Shown in pieces: positions 12,797-22,395 of a DNA stretch of 64,000 bases. The stretch comes from an uncultured Actinomycetes bacterium (lineage in GTDB: Bacteria; Actinomycetota; UBA4738; HRBIN12). Made by a program: the position numbers and the translations under genes. The DNA lies in the NCBI GenBank assembly GCA_963704885.1, contig CAVPIB010000004.1:160001-224000 (forward strand), given 5' to 3'. The notes under the pieces are model-generated. The model was not told where the DNA came from, did not search any database, and worked only from the letters and a program-made list of their open reading frames with translations. The number at the start of each line of letters is the position of its first letter. Position 1 is the stretch's first letter.

Positions 12797-12880
12797 TGCC
12801 GGGAGAGGGGGTCGAACCCTCACGGGCCGAAGCCCACGGGATTTTGAGTCCCGCGCGTCTGCCAGTTCCGCCATCCCGGC
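12797..12880 (-). tRNA. tRNA-Leu (CAA), CCA not encoded
   Basis: Minus strand GCCGGGATGGCGGAACTGGCAGACGCG; anticodon arm CGGGA-CTCAAAA-TCCCG; long variable arm; GGTTCGA T-loop; acceptor ...CCCGGCA. Confidence 0.96.
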
Positions 12881-17241: not shown

Positions 17242-18005
17242 GCCCTCCCAACGGTGAAGCCGTCGTCAAGGTCGAGAACCTGCACAAGCGGTTCGGCGAG
17301 CTCGAGGTGCTCCGGGGGATCAACATGGAGGTCGACAAGGGCGAGGTCGTGGTCATCTTCGGCCGCTCCGGATCCGGCAAGTCGACGCTCCTGCGATGCA
17401 TCAACTTCCTGGAGGACCCCACGGAGGGGACCGTCGAGGTCTCCGGGATCCGGCTGGAGGGCGGTCACCGGACCCGCGGCAAGCGGGAGCAGATCCGCCT
17501 CGTTCGCCTTCACGCCGGGATGGTGTTCCAGCAGTTCAACCTGTTCCCGCACCTGACGGTGATCAACAACGTCATCGAGGGACCCGTGACGGTGAAGGGG
17601 CTGCCCAAGGACCAGGCCCGAGCGACCGGGATGGAGATCCTCGGGAAGGTCGGTCTCGCAGAGAAGGCCGACGTGTATCCGATCCGGCTTTCCGGTGGTC
17701 AGCAGCAACGTGTCGCGATCGCGCGCGCCCTCGCCATGGAGCCCGATGTGATGCTCTTCGACGAGCCGACCTCCGCGCTCGACCCGGAGCTGATCGGCGA
17801 GGTCCTGACGGTTATGAAGTCGCTCGCTATGGATCTGCACATGACCATGATGGTCGTGACGCATGAGATGGGGTTCGCACGAGAGGTCGCTAACAGGATG
17901 ATGTTCTTCCACGAGGGCGTCATCCTGGAAGAGGGCTCACCGGATCAACTCTTCGATCACACGCAGAACCCCGAGACCAAGAAGTTCCTCGAAGCGGTGC
18001 TGTAG
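17238..18005 (+). CDS. Polar amino acid ABC ATP-binding protein (GlnQ family)
   Basis: [53 protein letters not shown]. Confidence 0.93.
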
Positions 18006-18036
18006 GCGGCGCGAGCGCCGAGCGAGAGCCGTTCCC

Positions 18037-18191
18037 ACACAAAGAGAGACGGGCCGCGCCTCCTTGCGAACCACTCGCGCCTTCCCCATACGCGAGTGCC
18101 TCGACACGAGCGACGCGGCCCGTCACGCTTCGGTCCCGAAGTGACCGCGCTCGTCCCGTTCCCGGTCCGAGCCCGCCCTCCGCGGGACCGC
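18037..18191 (-). ncRNA. Candidate structured small RNA, family unassigned
   Basis: Own TTGACA-N17-TATCTT promoter; several stems including a perfect 11-bp helix (18048-18058 with 18114-18124); UUCG and GCAA tetraloops; U-rich tail. Confidence 0.55.
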
Positions 18192-18196
18192 AGCGA

Positions 18197-18225
18197 AAGA
18201 TAGACTGGAGGTTGAGGGCTGTCAA
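18197..18225 (-). promoter_or_regulatory. Housekeeping sigma promoter driving the candidate sRNA
   Basis: Minus strand TTGACA (18225-18220), 17-nt spacer, TATCTT (18202-18197). Confidence 0.7.
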
Positions 18226-18313
18226 CTCGCCCAGAACGCCTGCGAACGAGGCGATCTCAACGAGAGGTGCAGGTGGGCGTCGTGCGAGCCTGTCGGAAGA
18301 AAGAGTGACACGA

Positions 18314-18739
18314 TCATTCGACCGAGAACCCCGCGTGCATCCCAGCTTCGTAATGCTCCGGTAGGTTGCAGATGATCGCATAGGAACCGGGCTCGAGCGT
18401 GAGCTTGAGCTTTGCGCTCGTCCCGGAGACGATGTCCTCGACTTCGTCGATCAACACCAGACCTGCGGCTGCGAAATCGGCCACGTCGTCCACGATCTCG
18501 ATCTGCTCCAGATCTACCCCATCCGGGAGCGAGAACACCTCGAACTCGTGGGTCGTCGGCCCCGCGTTCTCCGCGACGAGGGTCACGTCGCCGGCCGCGA
18601 GTGAATCGGTCGAGAGTTCCACCGAGAAATCGGCCAGGTCGATCAGCATGTCTGCCTCGCTCGAATCGCCCCCGCTGCAAGCAGCGACACCGAGAACCAA
18701 CAGGCCCACGAGCGTGAGCGAGACGTTCCTTCGAACCAT
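18314..18739 (-). CDS. Cupredoxin-domain lipoprotein
   Basis: Lipobox VAAC; THEF and ICNLPEHYEAGM give the H/C/H/M type-1 copper ligands; SD GAGGGA. Confidence 0.85.
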   Translation of the reverse strand: MVRRNVSLTLVGLLVLGVAACSGGDSSEADMLIDLADFSVELSTDSLAAGDVTLVAENAGPTTHEFEVFSLPDGVDLEQIEIVDDVADFAAAGLVLIDEVEDIVSGTSAKLKLTLEPGSYAIICNLPEHYEAGMHAGFSVE

Positions 18740-18759
18740 CCTGTATCCCTCCTGGTGGG

Positions 18760-19602
18760 TCAGGCAGCTTGCGAAGCCGGGGCGGTCGCAGTTGCCAGGC
18801 GGCCGCGCTGCGGCCACAGAACGTAGGCAGCCATGGGGATCGCGTATGCGAGCCAGACCAAGACCTCCGCGGTTGTGGGTACGGGCTGAAGACCGAGCAT
18901 GCCGGTGAGGAGCGATGCCCGGACGGTCCCGGGAGCCACGAGCCACGACAGGTTGAAGGCCGACCCCTGCAGAGCGGTCACGACGCCGGCCTCGGCGAAC
19001 GCGTGGACGGCGTTCGCGAGGAGGCCCGCCGCCACCAGGACCAGGACGAAGCCCGTGACCTTGAAGAACCGGGCCAGGTTGATCCGGATGCCGCCGCGGT
19101 AGATCGCGTACCCGAGACCGACCGCGATGACGACGCCGATGACTGCGCCGCTCCCGGTCGCGGCGGGGTCAGATGAGCTCTGGAACGCGGCGAGCATGAA
19201 GATCGCGGTCTCCAGTCCCTCGCGCAGAACGGCGAAGAAGGCCAGGGCCACGAGCCCCACGACGGAGCCCGCGACCAACGCCTGGGCTGCGTTCTCCTCG
19301 AGTGTTCCCTTCAGCTCCTTCGCATGGCGACGCATCCACACGATCATGTAGGTCACGCCGGTCACTGCCACCAGGGCTAGGCCGCCCTCCATCGTCTCCC
19401 GCTGGCGGAGCGGGAGGGACCGTCCGATCGCGCTCAAGATGATGGCGGCGCCGGCACACAGGACCACGGCCAGTCCCACTCCGAACCACATCGGCCGTAG
19501 GGCATGGCGCTGACCTCGTTGGATCAGGAACGCCGCGATGATGCCCACGATCAGTGCCGCCTCCATCCCCTCTCGGAGTCCTATGACGAACGTCGGCAGC
19601 AT
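18760..19602 (-). CDS. efeU: FTR1/EfeU-family iron permease
   Basis: Two RExxE motifs (LREGMEA, LREGLET); multiple transmembrane segments. Confidence 0.9.
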   Translation of the reverse strand: MLPTFVIGLREGMEAALIVGIIAAFLIQRGQRHALRPMWFGVGLAVVLCAGAAIILSAIGRSLPLRQRETMEGGLALVAVTGVTYMIVWMRRHAKELKGTLEENAAQALVAGSVVGLVALAFFAVLREGLETAIFMLAAFQSSSDPAATGSGAVIGVVIAVGLGYAIYRGGIRINLARFFKVTGFVLVLVAAGLLANAVHAFAEAGVVTALQGSAFNLSWLVAPGTVRASLLTGMLGLQPVPTTAEVLVWLAYAIPMAAYVLWPQRGRLATATAPASQAA

Positions 19603-19717
19603 CCTCGGTCCTTTCGGTCGACCTAACGGCCGGCTGAATCCTATCTAAGAGGTCGGATATGAGGCAACCTCGTTCGGCCCCGGATCATCTGTCCTGGACG
19701 AACCGGCCACGGAGGGG

Positions 19718-19739
19718 CGTCGGATGAGCGGGCTAGAAT
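19718..19739 (+). promoter_or_regulatory. RecA-NDp/PafBC-type leaderless promoter of polA
   Basis: CGTCGG-N10-TAGAAT, 7 nt before the GTG start. Confidence 0.6.
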
Positions 19740-19746
19740 CCGCCGC

Positions 19747-22395
19747 GTGGCCCCCTCGCACGGACCCGACGGTCCGAAACGCATCTTCCTGCTGGACGGA
19801 CACTCGCTCGCGTACCGGGCCTTCTTCGCCTTGCCGGTGACACTCGCCACGAGCACCGGCCAGGTCACGAACGCCGTCTACGGCTTCACATCCATGTTGA
19901 TCAAACTGCTGGCCGACGAGCGCCCCGACTACCTCGCCGTCGCGTTCGACCTGGGCGCGCCAACGGTCCGGCTGGAGAAGTATCCCGAGTACAAGGCCGG
20001 TCGCGCCGAGACGCCGAGCGAGTTCAAGCCGCAGCTGGGGTTGATCGACGAGGTGTTGAACGCACTTCACGTGCCGATGGTTCGCGTCGAGGATCACGAG
20101 GCGGACGACGCCATCGGCACGCTCGCGGTCCGAGCCGCCGAACGAGGGATCGAGGCGGTGATCGTCACCGCCGATCGGGACTTCTTCCAGTTGGTGAGGC
20201 CTGGGATCCGCGTGATGTTCAACCGGCGCGGGATCTCCGACATCGTTCTGTTCGATGAGACGGCCGTCGAGGAGCGCTACGGGGTGAAGCCGGAGCAGTA
20301 CCTGGAGTACGTGGCCCTCAAGGGTGACCCTTCGGACAACATCCCGGGTGTGCCGGGAGTGGGGGAGAAGACCGCGGCCAAGCTCGTGCAGCAGTACGGG
20401 TCCGTTGAGGAGATCGTCGCCAACGTGGACGAGCTTCGCGGCAAGCTCAGGGACAACGTCAAGGCGTCGGTCGAACAGCTCTCCCTGAACCGAGAGCTGG
20501 CGCGGATCGTGACGGACCTCCCGCTAGACGTTGAGCCGGAGGACTGCGTCCTGGGCGATTGGGATCCCGACGAGGTACGGCGGCTGTTCACGTCGCTCGA
20601 GTTCCGATCGCTGCTCGACCGGCTGCAGGAGGCGGGGGTCTCCAAGGCCAAGGTCGAGGTGATAGAGCTGGATCTGCGAGAGGTGCCGGTCGCGGAGCTC
20701 GTGGGCGTGCTGGAGACCTCGGGGCCGAAGGCGGTGCGGTTGGACGCGACCGCCAGCGAGATCCGGGGCGCCGCCGCGTCGGCGGGGGGCGCACAGGCCG
20801 CGTATGCGTCGCTCACTTCTCTCGAGCCCCTCGCGATGGTGCTCGGTTCGCCGGCCGCGCCGAAATGGACGCACGATGCCAAGTCGCTGGAGCGTGGAGC
20901 TATCGCGGGTGGCGTCGCCATCGATGGGGTGGTGTTCGACTCGCTGCTGGCGGGGTACCTGCTGGATCCCGCGGCCGCCGACTACCCGCTCGGGGCCCTT
21001 GGCGAGAAGTATCTGGGCGCCGATGTTCTGGGATCGATCGACGACGAGGAAGAGGGTCAGCTCTTCAGCGAGGCCGGCTGGCGCAGGGTCGCTGCGGAGG
21101 CGGCAGCGGTGGCGCTCCTGGCCCCCGTGATGTACGAGGAGGTCGACAAGCAGGGTCTCCGTGAGCTGCTCGAGACGGTGGAGCTACCGCTCGCATCGGT
21201 GCTCGCCCGCATGGAGGCGCGAGGGGTCGCGCTCGACGTGGGCTACCTGGATGAGATGGGGACGTCGGTCCGCGAGCGTATGGACGAGCTGCAGGCGGAC
21301 GTGTTCCGCGCCGCCGGCGAGGAGTTCAACCTGAACTCGCCGCCTCAGCTGCGCGTGGTCCTGTACGAGAAGCTTGGCCTCTCGCCCGGCAAGCGCACGC
21401 CCAAGGGCCAGCTCTCCACAGACGCGAGCGTGCTGGAGAAGCTCCGCGAGCACCCGGTCGTGGACGCGCTGCTCGACTGGCGCGAGCTGGACAAGCTGAA
21501 CTCGACTTACCTGGAGGCGCTGCCCCGGCTGGTCGACCCTGGCGATGGACGCATCCACACCTCGTTCAATCAGGCCGTGGCGGCCACGGGGCGGTTGTCC
21601 TCGTCCAATCCGAACCTGCAGAACATCCCGGTGCGGACGGAGCTCGGACGCCAGATCCGCCGCGCCTTCGTCCCGGGCGACGCTGGTCAGGTCCTGCTGG
21701 CGGCGGACTACTCGCAGATCGAGCTGCGGATCCTGGCGCACCTGTCCGGCGACGAAGGGTTGCGCGAGGCGTTCGCGTCGGGACACGACATCCACACGGC
21801 GACCGCGGCGCGTGTCTTCGGATTGCCAGAGGACAAGGTGGACCCCGCCCTTCGTTCGCGGGCCAAGATGGTGAACTACGGCCTGGCCTACGGCATGAAC
21901 GCATGGGGCCTGGCGACGCGACTGGACATCGCGCCGGACGAGGCGCAGGAGATCATGGATGCCTACTTCGCGAGCTTCCCCGGCATCCGTGAGTATCTGG
22001 ACCGTCAGGTGGATCGCGCGACCGTCGACGGATTCACCGAGACCTTACTGGGCAGACGTCGCTATATCCCCGAGCTTCATGCGTCGAACCCGCGCGTGCG
22101 CGACCTTGGCCGGCGGCAGGCGTTGAACGCCCCGATCCAGGGGAGCGCGAGCGATGTGTTCAAGGTGGCGATGATCCACGTGGACCGTGCGCTGAGGGAA
22201 CATCCGGAGCTCGACTGCCATATGTTGATGACCGTCCACGACGAGTTGGTGTTCGAGGTGAGCGAAGCCACGGTCGATGAGGCCGCGGCGCTGGTGAAGG
22301 AACGGATGGAGGCCGCCGTCCAGTTGGAGGTCGCTCTGCGCGCCGACATCGGTTGGGGCTCCAACTGGTCTGAAGCAGCTCCCGAAGGCCACTGA
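19747..22395 (+). CDS. polA: DNA polymerase I
   Basis: LLDGHSLAYRAFFALP, EADD, GDPSDNIPGVPGVGEKTA, TGRLSSSNPNLQNIP, ADYSQIELR, VHDELV. Confidence 0.98.
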   Translation: MAPSHGPDGPKRIFLLDGHSLAYRAFFALPVTLATSTGQVTNAVYGFTSMLIKLLADERPDYLAVAFDLGAPTVRLEKYPEYKAGRAETPSEFKPQLGLIDEVLNALHVPMVRVEDHEADDAIGTLAVRAAERGIEAVIVTADRDFFQLVRPGIRVMFNRRGISDIVLFDETAVEERYGVKPEQYLEYVALKGDPSDNIPGVPGVGEKTAAKLVQQYGSVEEIVANVDELRGKLRDNVKASVEQLSLNRELARIVTDLPLDVEPEDCVLGDWDPDEVRRLFTSLEFRSLLDRLQEAGVSKAKVEVIELDLREVPVAELVGVLETSGPKAVRLDATASEIRGAAASAGGAQAAYASLTSLEPLAMVLGSPAAPKWTHDAKSLERGAIAGGVAIDGVVFDSLLAGYLLDPAAADYPLGALGEKYLGADVLGSIDDEEEGQLFSEAGWRRVAAEAAAVALLAPVMYEEVDKQGLRELLETVELPLASVLARMEARGVALDVGYLDEMGTSVRERMDELQADVFRAAGEEFNLNSPPQLRVVLYEKLGLSPGKRTPKGQLSTDASVLEKLREHPVVDALLDWRELDKLNSTYLEALPRLVDPGDGRIHTSFNQAVAATGRLSSSNPNLQNIPVRTELGRQIRRAFVPGDAGQVLLAADYSQIELRILAHLSGDEGLREAFASGHDIHTATAARVFGLPEDKVDPALRSRAKMVNYGLAYGMNAWGLATRLDIAPDEAQEIMDAYFASFPGIREYLDRQVDRATVDGFTETLLGRRRYIPELHASNPRVRDLGRRQALNAPIQGSASDVFKVAMIHVDRALREHPELDCHMLMTVHDELVFEVSEATVDEAAALVKERMEAAVQLEVALRADIGWGSNWSEAAPEGH

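What the first reader, a model, noticed from the sequence alone, without database searches (positions are those of the whole stretch)
18037..18225. Candidate novel structured sRNA with a consensus promoter and GGA/SD-like loops
Seen: a ~310-bp gap between convergent genes contains, on the minus strand, TTGACA-N17-TATCTT with no convincing gene downstream. The predicted ~155-nt RNA has hairpin 1 (CCCGC-GGAGG-GCGGG inside CGGUCC/GGACCG), a C(UUCG)G hairpin (18132-18146), and a multi-branch domain closed by a perfect 11-bp helix. That domain holds an 8-bp stem with loop AUGGGGAAG and a GCAA tetraloop, and is followed by CUCUCUUUGUGU. G-U extensions favour the minus strand. Seven GGA trinucleotides are present. 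I do not recognise it as tRNA, SRP, tmRNA, RNase P, 6C or a riboswitch. Inference: a protein-sequestering (Csr-like) or base-pairing sRNA; position next to the iron uptake genes is suggestive only.
Basis: partly seen in the sequence, partly recalled or inferred. Interest (0 to 1): 0.75.

Follow-up and report, generated by a model that had tools for sequence, protein, structure and literature searches.

The report
Undescribed conserved small RNA near polA
The gap holds a real gene for a folded, non-coding RNA of about 150 bases that nearly every relative of this high-GC actinobacterium keeps at the same spot beside the DNA polymerase I gene, that matches no catalogued RNA family, and whose job is still unknown.

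Summary
Window 18225-18037 (minus strand) is a separate transcription unit. It has a near-consensus promoter, two hairpin domains and a U-rich tail.

- **Distribution:** the 3' hairpin was found in 122 of 123 genomes of the same order and in several other actinobacterial families.
- **Structure:** compensatory base changes and a strong excess of G-U pairs fix both the fold and the strand.
- **Invariant loop:** the apical loop UAUGGGGAAGG is identical in all 103 distinct sequences aligned.
- **Gene order:** it is constant. polA lies upstream and divergent, often with an FTR1 permease gene in between, and an amino-acid ABC transporter lies downstream and convergent.
- **Known families:** no Rfam family reaches threshold. 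6C scores 23.5 bits against a cut-off of 47, and the 6S and Ms1 models find nothing.

Both domains are extended hairpins. The Csr idea is not supported: the genome shows no CsrA, and only one unpaired GGA is conserved.

The function is unknown. I favour a trans-acting RNA that works through the 3' hairpin, probably by binding a protein. Transcription has not been shown.

The parts
18220..18225 (-). -35 hexamer TTGACA
   Evidence: TTGACN is kept in 109 of 111 distinct related loci, and 97 of them read TTGACA.
18197..18202 (-). -10 hexamer TATCTT (TANNNT type), 17-nt spacer
   Evidence: The spacer is 17 nt in 91 loci and 18 nt in 18 loci.
18189..18191 (-). Inferred transcription start, 6-8 nt after the -10 (not measured)
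   Evidence: Inferred from promoter geometry. No 5'-end data are available.
18131..18190 (-). Domain 1: one extended hairpin closed by CGGUCCCG/CGGGACCG (18190-18183 with 18138-18131), capped by GNRA tetraloop GGAA (18162-18159)
   Evidence: MFE folds. Covariation on 29 short-form relatives: 86.1% paired, 8 of 19 pairs compensatory. In other genera the homologous domain is 135-200 nt, with a 13-bp closing helix and a GNRA apex.
18125..18130 (-). Single-stranded linker between the two domains
   Evidence: The linker is 5-7 nt in most relatives.
18048..18124 (-). Domain 2: extended hairpin. The closing helix is 13 bp (18124-18112 with 18060-18048), followed by an irregular middle and the apical stem 18098-18090 with 18080-18072
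   Evidence: Covariance model R1 scores 82.6 bits here. On 103 distinct sequences the structure is 92.7% paired, against 30-47% for slid controls, and 16 of 22 pairs are compensatory. Middle helix.
18080..18090 (-). Invariant apical loop UAUGGGGAAGG (9-nt loop closed by a U-G pair)
   Evidence: These columns are invariant in 103 of 103 distinct sequences. The U-G closing pair is present in 103 of 103.
18037..18047 (-). U-rich tail after the closing helix; inferred 3' end (intrinsic-terminator-like)
   Evidence: The first 12 nt after the helix are 38% T across the related loci.

Best explanation
Window ~18191-18040 (minus strand) is a stand-alone gene for a structured non-coding RNA of an uncatalogued family. 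The RNA is about 150 nt here and about 100-235 nt in relatives.

**How it is made (inferred).** A near-consensus housekeeping-type promoter transcribes it. It ends at the U-rich tail that follows its 3' hairpin.

**How it works (inferred).** It acts in trans, and the working part is the 3' hairpin (domain 2). That part consists of the invariant G-rich apical loop UAUGGGGAAGG on an invariant upper stem, plus a conserved asymmetric internal loop. I think it most likely binds a conserved protein or cellular machine, so that it is the RNA part of an RNP or a decoy, rather than acting only as a free antisense seed. Domain 1 is a GNRA-capped rod of variable length with a sequence-conserved closing helix. 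It would serve as a scaffold, stabiliser or processing element.

**Shown here:** conservation, fold, strand, promoter and terminator signals, gene order, and lack of a match to any Rfam family.

**Inferred only:** transcription, trans action and the protein partner.

I put the gene itself at about 0.9. The figure of 0.4 below is for the mechanism.
For: **The gene is real**
- DNA search: 54 of 61 relatives match, covering 41 of 45 genera.
- Covariance model R1: 122 of 123 genomes of the order match, covering 48 of 48 genera. In a phylum sample, 31 of 151 genomes match.
- Structure, domain 2: 92.7% of cells are paired, 16 of 22 pairs show compensatory change, and 0 of 500 shuffles reach the observed value.
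- Structure, domain 1.
- Strand: 255 G-U against 31 A-C cells; 82.6 against 38.1 bits.
- Promoter: TTGACN-N17/18-TANNNT in 109 of 111 distinct loci. The tail is 38% T.
- No conserved ORF: the ORF that starts at the loop AUG is 4 codons long in 50 of 111 sequences and ranges from 4 to 384 codons.

**It is not a 5' leader**
- A convergent ABC ATPase gene lies downstream in 94 of 116 distinct loci, and no other orientation was seen.

**Domain 2 is the working module**
- The loop and the top five stem pairs never covary in 103 sequences.
- Some genomes of another family carry a second, hairpin-only relative. It has its own promoter and U6 tail and the same GGGGAAGG loop and internal-loop letters.
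- One phage-like contig carries domain 2 alone, at 76.4 bits.

**Protein binding is favoured**
- Sequence invariance extends into helices. One example is a G-U wobble kept in 41 of 41 long-form closing helices.
- Sites complementary to the loop are not enriched in the genome.
Against: - **No transcript shown.** The only RNA-library evidence is two metatranscriptome contigs from relatives. One, of 287 nt, covers 18003-18231 and so includes the promoter. They give no strand and no ends, and DNA carry-over cannot be excluded.
- **No partner protein.** None has been identified, and no RNA-binding protein gene is a conserved neighbour.
- **Invariance fits base-pairing too.** An invariant loop is also what a multi-target base-pairing seed would show. 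In the hairpin-only relative the apical stem letters differ while the loop core is kept. That fits a seed at least as well as a protein site.
- **The target scan was weak.** It covered a single genome and used exact words only, so it does not count strongly against base-pairing.
Confidence: 0.4

Rival explanations
1. It is a base-pairing regulatory sRNA, in the manner of Hfq-independent actinobacterial sRNAs. The invariant G-rich loop would be a seed that pairs with C/U-rich sites (complement CCUUCCCCAUA) in several mRNAs and changes their translation or stability.
For: - The loop is invariant in 103 of 103 sequences.
- The hairpin-only relative keeps the loop core while its stem letters differ.
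- Single hits exist at start regions. One example is a 9-nt match that covers the spacer and AUG of a TrpB-like gene at G000 C1:446214.
Against: - 8-mers complementary to the loop are not enriched: 162 occurrences against a median of 112 and a range of 29-370 for same-composition words.
- No conserved pairing with the polA 5' end was found. Duplex energies of -15 to -24 kcal/mol fall at scattered positions, and the window's own polA start has no C run.
- The upper stem is invariant, which a seed alone does not need.
- No comparative target prediction was run.
Confidence: 0.3
2. It is an RNA-polymerase-binding RNA that fills the 6S/Ms1 role in lineages where neither has been found.
For: - The Rfam 6S model finds nothing in this genome. 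The Ms1 model finds nothing in 41 relatives.
- The authors of PMC11077062 (passages read) propose that each species has one abundant RNAP-associated RNA and that unknown types exist in actinobacteria that lack 6S and Ms1.
- The RNA has a strong conserved promoter, a rod-like domain 1, is essentially single-copy, and keeps a conserved gene order.
- In the phylum sample, none of the 8 genomes with 6C is among the 31 genomes that carry this RNA. In two mycobacteria-like loci scanned, 6C lies beside Ms1.
Against: - Neither the folds nor the covariation show a large central bubble.
- Domain 1 shrinks from about 140 nt to about 60 nt, and in some lineages is nearly lost. The conserved part is a terminal hairpin loop instead.
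- The Ms1 control rang in no control genome, so that negative is weak.
- Abundance and RNAP binding are untested.
Confidence: 0.1
3. It is a cis element rather than a gene product with its own role. It could be a shared or bidirectional terminator, or a 3'-end antisense element, for the FTR1 operon and the convergent ABC transporter operon.
For: - Domain 2 sits 40-45 nt from the stop codon of the convergent ABC ATPase gene.
- The position between FTR1 and the ABC operon is constant.
- One RNA-library contig bridges the ABC gene end and domain 2 (record 8).
Against: - A terminator does not need an invariant 11-nt loop, an invariant upper stem or a second domain.
- It has its own conserved promoter.
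- Compact loci have no FTR1 gene upstream.
- Relatives of the hairpin stand alone in other gene contexts.
Confidence: 0.05
4. It is a CsrB/RsmZ-type sponge that titrates a CsrA-family protein through GGA loops (one of the first reader's two suggestions).
For: The window's RNA contains seven GGA, against a mean of 3.7 in shuffles.
Against: - CsrA (PF02599) was not found in the 97%-complete genome, while the controls rang.
- Only 2 of the 7 GGA are conserved in 29 relatives, and one of those two is paired.
Confidence: 0.01
5. The product is a small protein: the 50-codon ORF 18089-17937 that starts at the loop AUG.
For: The ORF exists in the window (one search lists 17937-18107).
Against: - From the same AUG, the frame is 4 codons long in 50 of 111 distinct relatives and varies from 4 to 384 codons.
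- The substitutions keep base pairs.
- The AUG sits in an invariant hairpin loop, and no upstream ribosome-binding site is conserved.
Confidence: 0.01

Closest known systems
6C RNA (Rfam RF01066; B11 of mycobacteria, cgb_03605 of C. glutamicum)
   Same: - Both are actinobacterial stand-alone small RNAs.
- Both have two GC-rich hairpins, the second of which doubles as the terminator, and conserved hairpin loops.
- 6C is the best, though sub-threshold, Rfam match. The match is driven by similar letters in the second stem.
   Different: - It scores 23.5 bits against a cut-off of 47, and there is no 6C hit in the genome.
- The loops are G-rich or GNRA rather than C-rich. The C-rich definition of 6C is recalled, not taken from a call.
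- It is two to three times longer than 6C.
- The locus differs. Here it is polA/ABC transporter, whereas in two mycobacteria-like genomes 6C lies 1.1-1.4 kb from Ms1.
- None of the 8 genomes with 6C in the sample carries this RNA.
Ms1 (RF02566) and 6S RNA (RF00013), the RNA-polymerase-binding RNAs
   Same: - Size class of 150-300 nt.
- A rod-like helical domain.
- A conserved chromosomal position.
- This RNA occurs where the 6S and Ms1 models find nothing.
   Different: - No match to either model.
- No central bubble.
- Ms1 gene order (HAD-IB hydrolase, oxidoreductase, CpaE; PMC9130861, passages read) is not the order found here.
- A mycobacterial Ms1 folded shares no motif with this RNA.
- Binding to RNA polymerase is untested.
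CoRP RNA of Corynebacterium (PMC11077062)
   Same: It is an actinobacterial RNA that was missing from databases and sits in a lineage without 6S or Ms1.
   Different: CoRP is about 516 nt, lies between tRNA genes and is cleaved into two fragments (passages read). Neither the size nor the locus fits.
CsrB/RsmZ-type protein sponges
   Same: A GGA is displayed in a hairpin loop.
   Different: There is one conserved unpaired GGA rather than many, and no CsrA gene.
Spot 42 (spf) of enterobacteria
   Same: It is a small RNA gene that neighbours polA. This point is recalled knowledge and was not tested here.
   Different: It belongs to another phylum and has another orientation. Nothing links the two in sequence or structure, and no Rfam hit appeared.

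Membership tests
6C RNA (RF01066) | Score at or above Rfam's gathering cut-off (47 bits) | tested here: not met
   23.5 bits, E = 0.68, at 18044-18151 on the minus strand. No match at E <= 0.001 anywhere in the genome.
6C RNA (RF01066) | Two hairpins whose loops are C-rich (definition recalled) | tested here: not met
   The supported loops are GGAA (18162-18159) and AUGGGGAAG (18089-18081).
6C RNA (RF01066) | Chromosomal neighbourhood shared with known members | tested here: not met
   In L181 and L183, 6C lies beside Ms1. Here the neighbours are polA, FTR1 and an ABC transporter.
6S RNA (RF00013) | Score at or above the gathering cut-off (46.4 bits) | tested here: not met
   No match in the genome, while 5 control genomes rang. 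6S is not among the E <= 10 matches in the gap.
6S RNA (RF00013) | Long hairpin with a large central bubble that mimics an open promoter | tested here: not met
   Folds of 29 homologues and the consensus structures show rods with small internal loops only.
6S RNA / Ms1 | Binds RNA polymerase (holoenzyme or core) | not testable with these tools
   This needs RIP-seq or a pull-down.
Ms1 (RF02566) | Score at or above the gathering cut-off (162 bits) | tested here: not met
   No match in the gap or in a long-form homologue at E <= 10. 0 of 41 relatives match at E <= 1, but that control rang nowhere. The model does find Ms1 in L181 and L183.
Ms1 (RF02566) | Flanked by HAD-IB hydrolase/phosphoserine phosphatase and oxidoreductase-type genes (PMC9130861) | tested here: not met
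   The flanks are a cupredoxin-like ORF, FTR1, polA and an ABC ATPase.
CsrB/RsmZ-type sponge | Several conserved GGA motifs in unpaired positions | tested here: not met
   2 of 7 GGA are conserved in 29 relatives, and one of the two is paired.
CsrB/RsmZ-type sponge | The genome encodes CsrA | tested here: not met
   PF02599 was not found in G000 (97% complete). The controls rang in 3 genomes.
Stand-alone bacterial small RNA gene (generic kind) | Own promoter and terminator-like 3' end, conserved with the RNA | tested here: met
   109 of 111 loci have the promoter, and the tail is 38% T.
Stand-alone bacterial small RNA gene (generic kind) | Conserved secondary structure supported by compensatory changes, and no conserved ORF | tested here: met
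Stand-alone bacterial small RNA gene (generic kind) | A discrete transcript of the predicted strand and ends | tested here: inconclusive
   Only unstranded contigs of relatives from two metatranscriptomes are available.

The most novel reading that the evidence does not exclude
This RNA is the RNA subunit or ligand of a conserved, still unknown actinobacterial ribonucleoprotein. That would make it a housekeeping-type RNA. It could be the missing RNA-polymerase-binding RNA of lineages without 6S or Ms1, or an RNA tied to DNA replication and repair. Two observations hint at the second option: the gene sits back-to-back with polA across distant families, and a phage-like contig carries the 3' hairpin right after a DnaB-like helicase gene.
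Probability: 0.2. Interest if true: 0.85.

Novelty: new variant of a known kind. Interest (0 to 1): 0.68.

Why it matters
Few small RNAs are kept across whole orders with an unchanged loop and an unchanged chromosomal position. Those that are (SRP RNA, tmRNA, 6S, Ms1, 6C) have mostly turned out to be central parts of the cell.

This family is missing from Rfam and from the papers I could search. It is present in 122 of 123 genomes of its order and in several other actinobacterial families, many known only as uncultured soil and sediment genomes.

A covariance model now exists (R1), so the RNA can be annotated. The proposed partner or targets can be tested directly with a pull-down or a deletion in any cultured carrier. 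The RNA also offers a candidate answer to an open question raised in PMC11077062: what replaces 6S and Ms1 in actinobacteria that lack both.

Tried and rejected
- **Rfam.** The whole window at gathering thresholds gave two tRNAs only. The gap at E <= 10 gave 6C at 23.5 bits and noise. Eighteen related loci gave tRNAs only. A long-form homologue gave noise only.
- **SRP RNA.** It is found elsewhere in the genome, so this RNA is not SRP.
- **Ms1 and CoRP.** Both were rejected on model score, size and gene order.
- **CsrA.** Rejected.
- **Small ORF.** Rejected.
- **Loop targets.**
  - The window holds 13 sites with up to 2 mismatches, against 7.9 expected. Four of 100 shuffles reach that number, and the only exact site is the gene's own complement.
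  - Genome-wide words are not enriched.
  - The listed start-region hits are unconvincing.
  - There is no conserved pairing with the polA 5' end.
- **Public RNA libraries.** Two metatranscriptomes hold small shares. Their contigs from relatives cover the region but give no strand, ends or level. This counts neither for nor against transcription.
- **Plasmids.** No match.
- **Viral contigs.** Three pattern hits, of which two are coding chance matches.
- **Model R1 in two streptomycete-like and three mycobacteria-like genomes.** Nothing better than E = 1.4.
- **Earlier notes of this scan.** Nothing for this place or sequence. The word search returned only unrelated proteobacterial and phage RNAs.
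- **Literature.**
  - The literal loop string gave only unrelated primer hits.
  - Topic searches on polA, actinobacterial sRNAs and structured-RNA surveys found no description. Passages were read in PMC5737381, PMC3388012 and PMC11109978.
The motif lists of those surveys and the 824-species Ms1 table of PMC9130861 could hold this locus, and I could not see them.

Full report
**What is in the sequence**

The window is a high-GC actinobacterial contig, G000:C4:160001-224000. The gap 18006-18313 lies between two genes.
- On the + strand, an ABC-transporter ATPase gene ends at 18005 (PF00005).
- On the minus strand, a cupredoxin-like ORF runs 18946 to 18314.
- Further upstream are an FTR1 iron-permease gene (19602 to 18760, minus strand) and polA (19747-22395, + strand).

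On the minus strand the gap holds TTGACA-N17-TATCTT at 18225-18197. This is the only promoter-like site in 17500-18800, where shuffles give a mean of 0.1. Then follow about 150 nt of GC-rich sequence that fold into two hairpin domains, and a U-rich tail. Folding energy alone is unremarkable: z = -2.8 on the minus strand and -2.2 on the plus strand. The case therefore rests on comparative data.

**Conservation**

| Search | Genomes with a match | Without unpublished genomes |
|---|---|---|
| BLAST of 18030-18235 in relatives | 54 of 61 (41 of 45 genera, eight families of the order) | 49 of 56 |
| Model R1, order (genomes at least 90% complete) | 122 of 123 (48 of 48 genera) | 110 of 111 |
| Model R1, phylum sample | 31 of 151 | 30 of 150 |

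About a hundred are Actinomycetota genomes (mostly MAGs) that show the same hairpin. The rest are chance hits in other phyla or in coding sequence.
- Model R1 covers the 3' hairpin. It has 82 positions and 22 pairs and was built from 103 distinct sequences, with unpublished genomes left out.
- In the phylum sample all 11 genomes of the own order match. Two other families match at 9 of 10 and 8 of 10. There are scattered further hits, and many families have none.
- Three mycobacteria-like and two streptomycete-like genomes, searched with lax thresholds, gave nothing better than E = 1.4.

**Structure and strand: domain 2 (18124-18048)**

Domain 2 has a 13-bp closing helix and a 9-bp apical stem.
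- On 103 distinct sequences, 92.7% of cells pair, against 30-47% when partners are slid by 1-3 columns.
- 16 of 22 pairs show compensatory change, and no shuffle of 500 reaches the observed values.
- The loop UAUGGGGAAGG and the top five stem pairs are invariant or nearly so.
- The stretch between the two helices pairs as an extension of the hairpin: 78.2% paired, with 5 of 8 pairs compensatory.

**Structure and strand: domain 1 (18190-18131)**

Domain 1 is one long hairpin, closed by CGGUCCCG/CGGGACCG and capped by a GNRA tetraloop.
- This model is 86.1% paired with 8 of 19 pairs compensatory on 29 short-form relatives.
- In most other genera domain 1 is 135-200 nt long. It has a 13-bp closing helix of conserved sequence, including a G-U wobble kept in 41 of 41 sequences, and a GNRA apex.

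**Strand**

The strand is settled by three results.
- G-U cells number 255, against 31 A-C cells.
- R1 scores 82.6 bits on the minus strand and 38.1 on the plus strand.
- The promoter and the tail both lie on the minus strand.

**Transcription unit**

- Of 111 distinct loci with enough upstream sequence, 109 have TTGACN-N17/18-TANNNT upstream of the RNA. TTGACA itself occurs in 97.
- The implied RNA lengths fall into classes near 100-120, 150 and 230 nt.
- The 12 nt after the closing helix are 38% T in these GC-rich genomes.
- The ORF that starts at the loop AUG is not conserved. It is 4 codons long in 50 of 111 sequences and ranges from 4 to 384 codons.
- Direct evidence for a transcript is weak. 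Two metatranscriptomes hold contigs of relatives over the region. One of 287 nt covers 18003-18231. Contigs give no strand, ends or level, and that contig also covers the promoter.

**Gene order**

In 116 distinct loci the neighbours always have the same orientation.
- The ABC ATPase gene is downstream and convergent in 94 loci.
- polA is upstream and divergent in 71 loci.
- FTR1 is upstream on the same strand in 63 loci.

These counts are lower bounds, because many contigs are short. The order holds even where polA is only 47-58% identical to the window's. In the most compact lineages the polA start codon lies about 50 nt from the RNA's -35, back to back with it. polA itself looks leaderless: TAGAAT, then 7 nt, then GTG at 19747.

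**Comparison with known RNAs**

- **Rfam in general.** No Rfam 15 family reaches threshold in the window, in 18 related loci or in a long-form homologue.
- **6C.** It is the best sub-threshold match, at 23.5 bits against a cut-off of 47. The loops are not C-rich, the locus differs, and none of the 8 genomes with 6C in the phylum sample carries this RNA.
- **6S.** Not found in the genome.
- **Ms1.**
  - Not found in 41 relatives, although that control rang nowhere.
  - The published Ms1 gene order is different (PMC9130861, passages read).
  - A mycobacterial Ms1 that I folded shares no motif with this RNA.
- **CoRP.** It is about 516 nt and lies between tRNA genes (PMC11077062, passages read).
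- **SRP RNA.** It lies elsewhere in the genome.
- **CsrA.** Not found, and only 2 of the 7 GGA are conserved.
- **Papers.** My searches found no description. Supplements were closed, so motif tables of the structured-RNA surveys and the Ms1 species table might list this locus without my seeing it.

**What it probably does**

Domain 2 behaves as an autonomous module.
- Some genomes of another family carry a second, hairpin-only relative of about 85 nt.
  - It has its own promoter and a U6 tail.
  - It has the same GGGGAAGG loop core and internal-loop letters, but different stem letters.
  - It lies between glyoxalase-family and enoyl-CoA hydratase genes.
- One phage-like contig carries domain 2 alone, just after a DnaB-like helicase gene.

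I read the RNA as trans-acting, and I favour a protein or machine partner, for four reasons.
- It has a strong conserved promoter.
- It is near-universal and essentially single-copy.
- Helix nucleotides are invariant, including wobble pairs.
- Sites complementary to the loop are not enriched.

A base-pairing seed remains a serious rival. A 6S/Ms1-like role is the boldest reading that the data allow. None of these readings has been tested at the bench.

**Caveats**

- Transcription, RNA ends and abundance are inferred, not shown.
- Taxon names are unknown.
- The tallies include unpublished genomes. Counts without them are given in the table above.
- E-values from R1 are rough, as the tool states.

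Noticed in passing
window 19734-19749: polA looks leaderless. A -10-like TAGAAT lies 7 nt before the GTG start at 19747. Many related loci show the same TAGAAT/TAGGAT/TACGAT plus 6-8 nt plus GTG arrangement.
   Followed up: partly
window ~19636-19660 (FTR1-polA spacer): A palindrome GAATCC-N13-GGAT lies here. Its arms are longer (8 bp) in L073, L097 and L023. It could be an operator or a leader hairpin for the FTR1 operon.
   Followed up: no
window 18211-18226: The sRNA's -35 hexamer sits inside an inverted repeat GTTGA-N6-TCAAC. The repeat is kept in the short-form lineages but not in the long-form ones, so it may be a lineage-specific operator.
   Followed up: no
L190 3981-4061, L191 4002-4082, L192 4023-4103, L194 4086-4165: Genomes of another family carry a second, hairpin-only relative of about 85 nt. 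It has its own TTGAC-N17-TAACTT promoter and a U6 tail. The loop is AAAGGGGAAGG and the internal-loop letters are the same, but the stem letters differ. It lies between a glyoxalase-family gene and an enoyl-CoA hydratase gene.
   Followed up: partly
L195 4004-4077 (and similar 74-nt hits in one genus): This is a weaker second hit of about 42 bits. It keeps the internal-loop letters (GAGUAGAGAAC ... CCAAAGG) but has a different, C-rich apical loop. The internal loop may be a reusable module.
   Followed up: no
L187 9210-9292 (IMG/VR contig): A phage-like contig, with Gp3-like recombination directionality factor and DnaB-like helicase genes, carries domain 2 alone at 76.4 bits. It has its own compensated closing helix and sits just after the helicase gene. 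polA, FTR1 and ABC genes are not nearby.
   Followed up: partly
window 12797-12880; L036, L037, L040, L041, L044, L048, L055: An 84-nt tRNA gene lies a few kilobases from the sRNA in the window and in 7 of 18 related loci scanned, so the conserved block extends further.
   Followed up: no
G000 C1:446214-446222: The spacer and AUG of a TrpB-like gene (CUUCCCCAU) are a 9-nt complement of the sRNA loop. This is a single-genome observation, and conservation was not checked.
   Followed up: no
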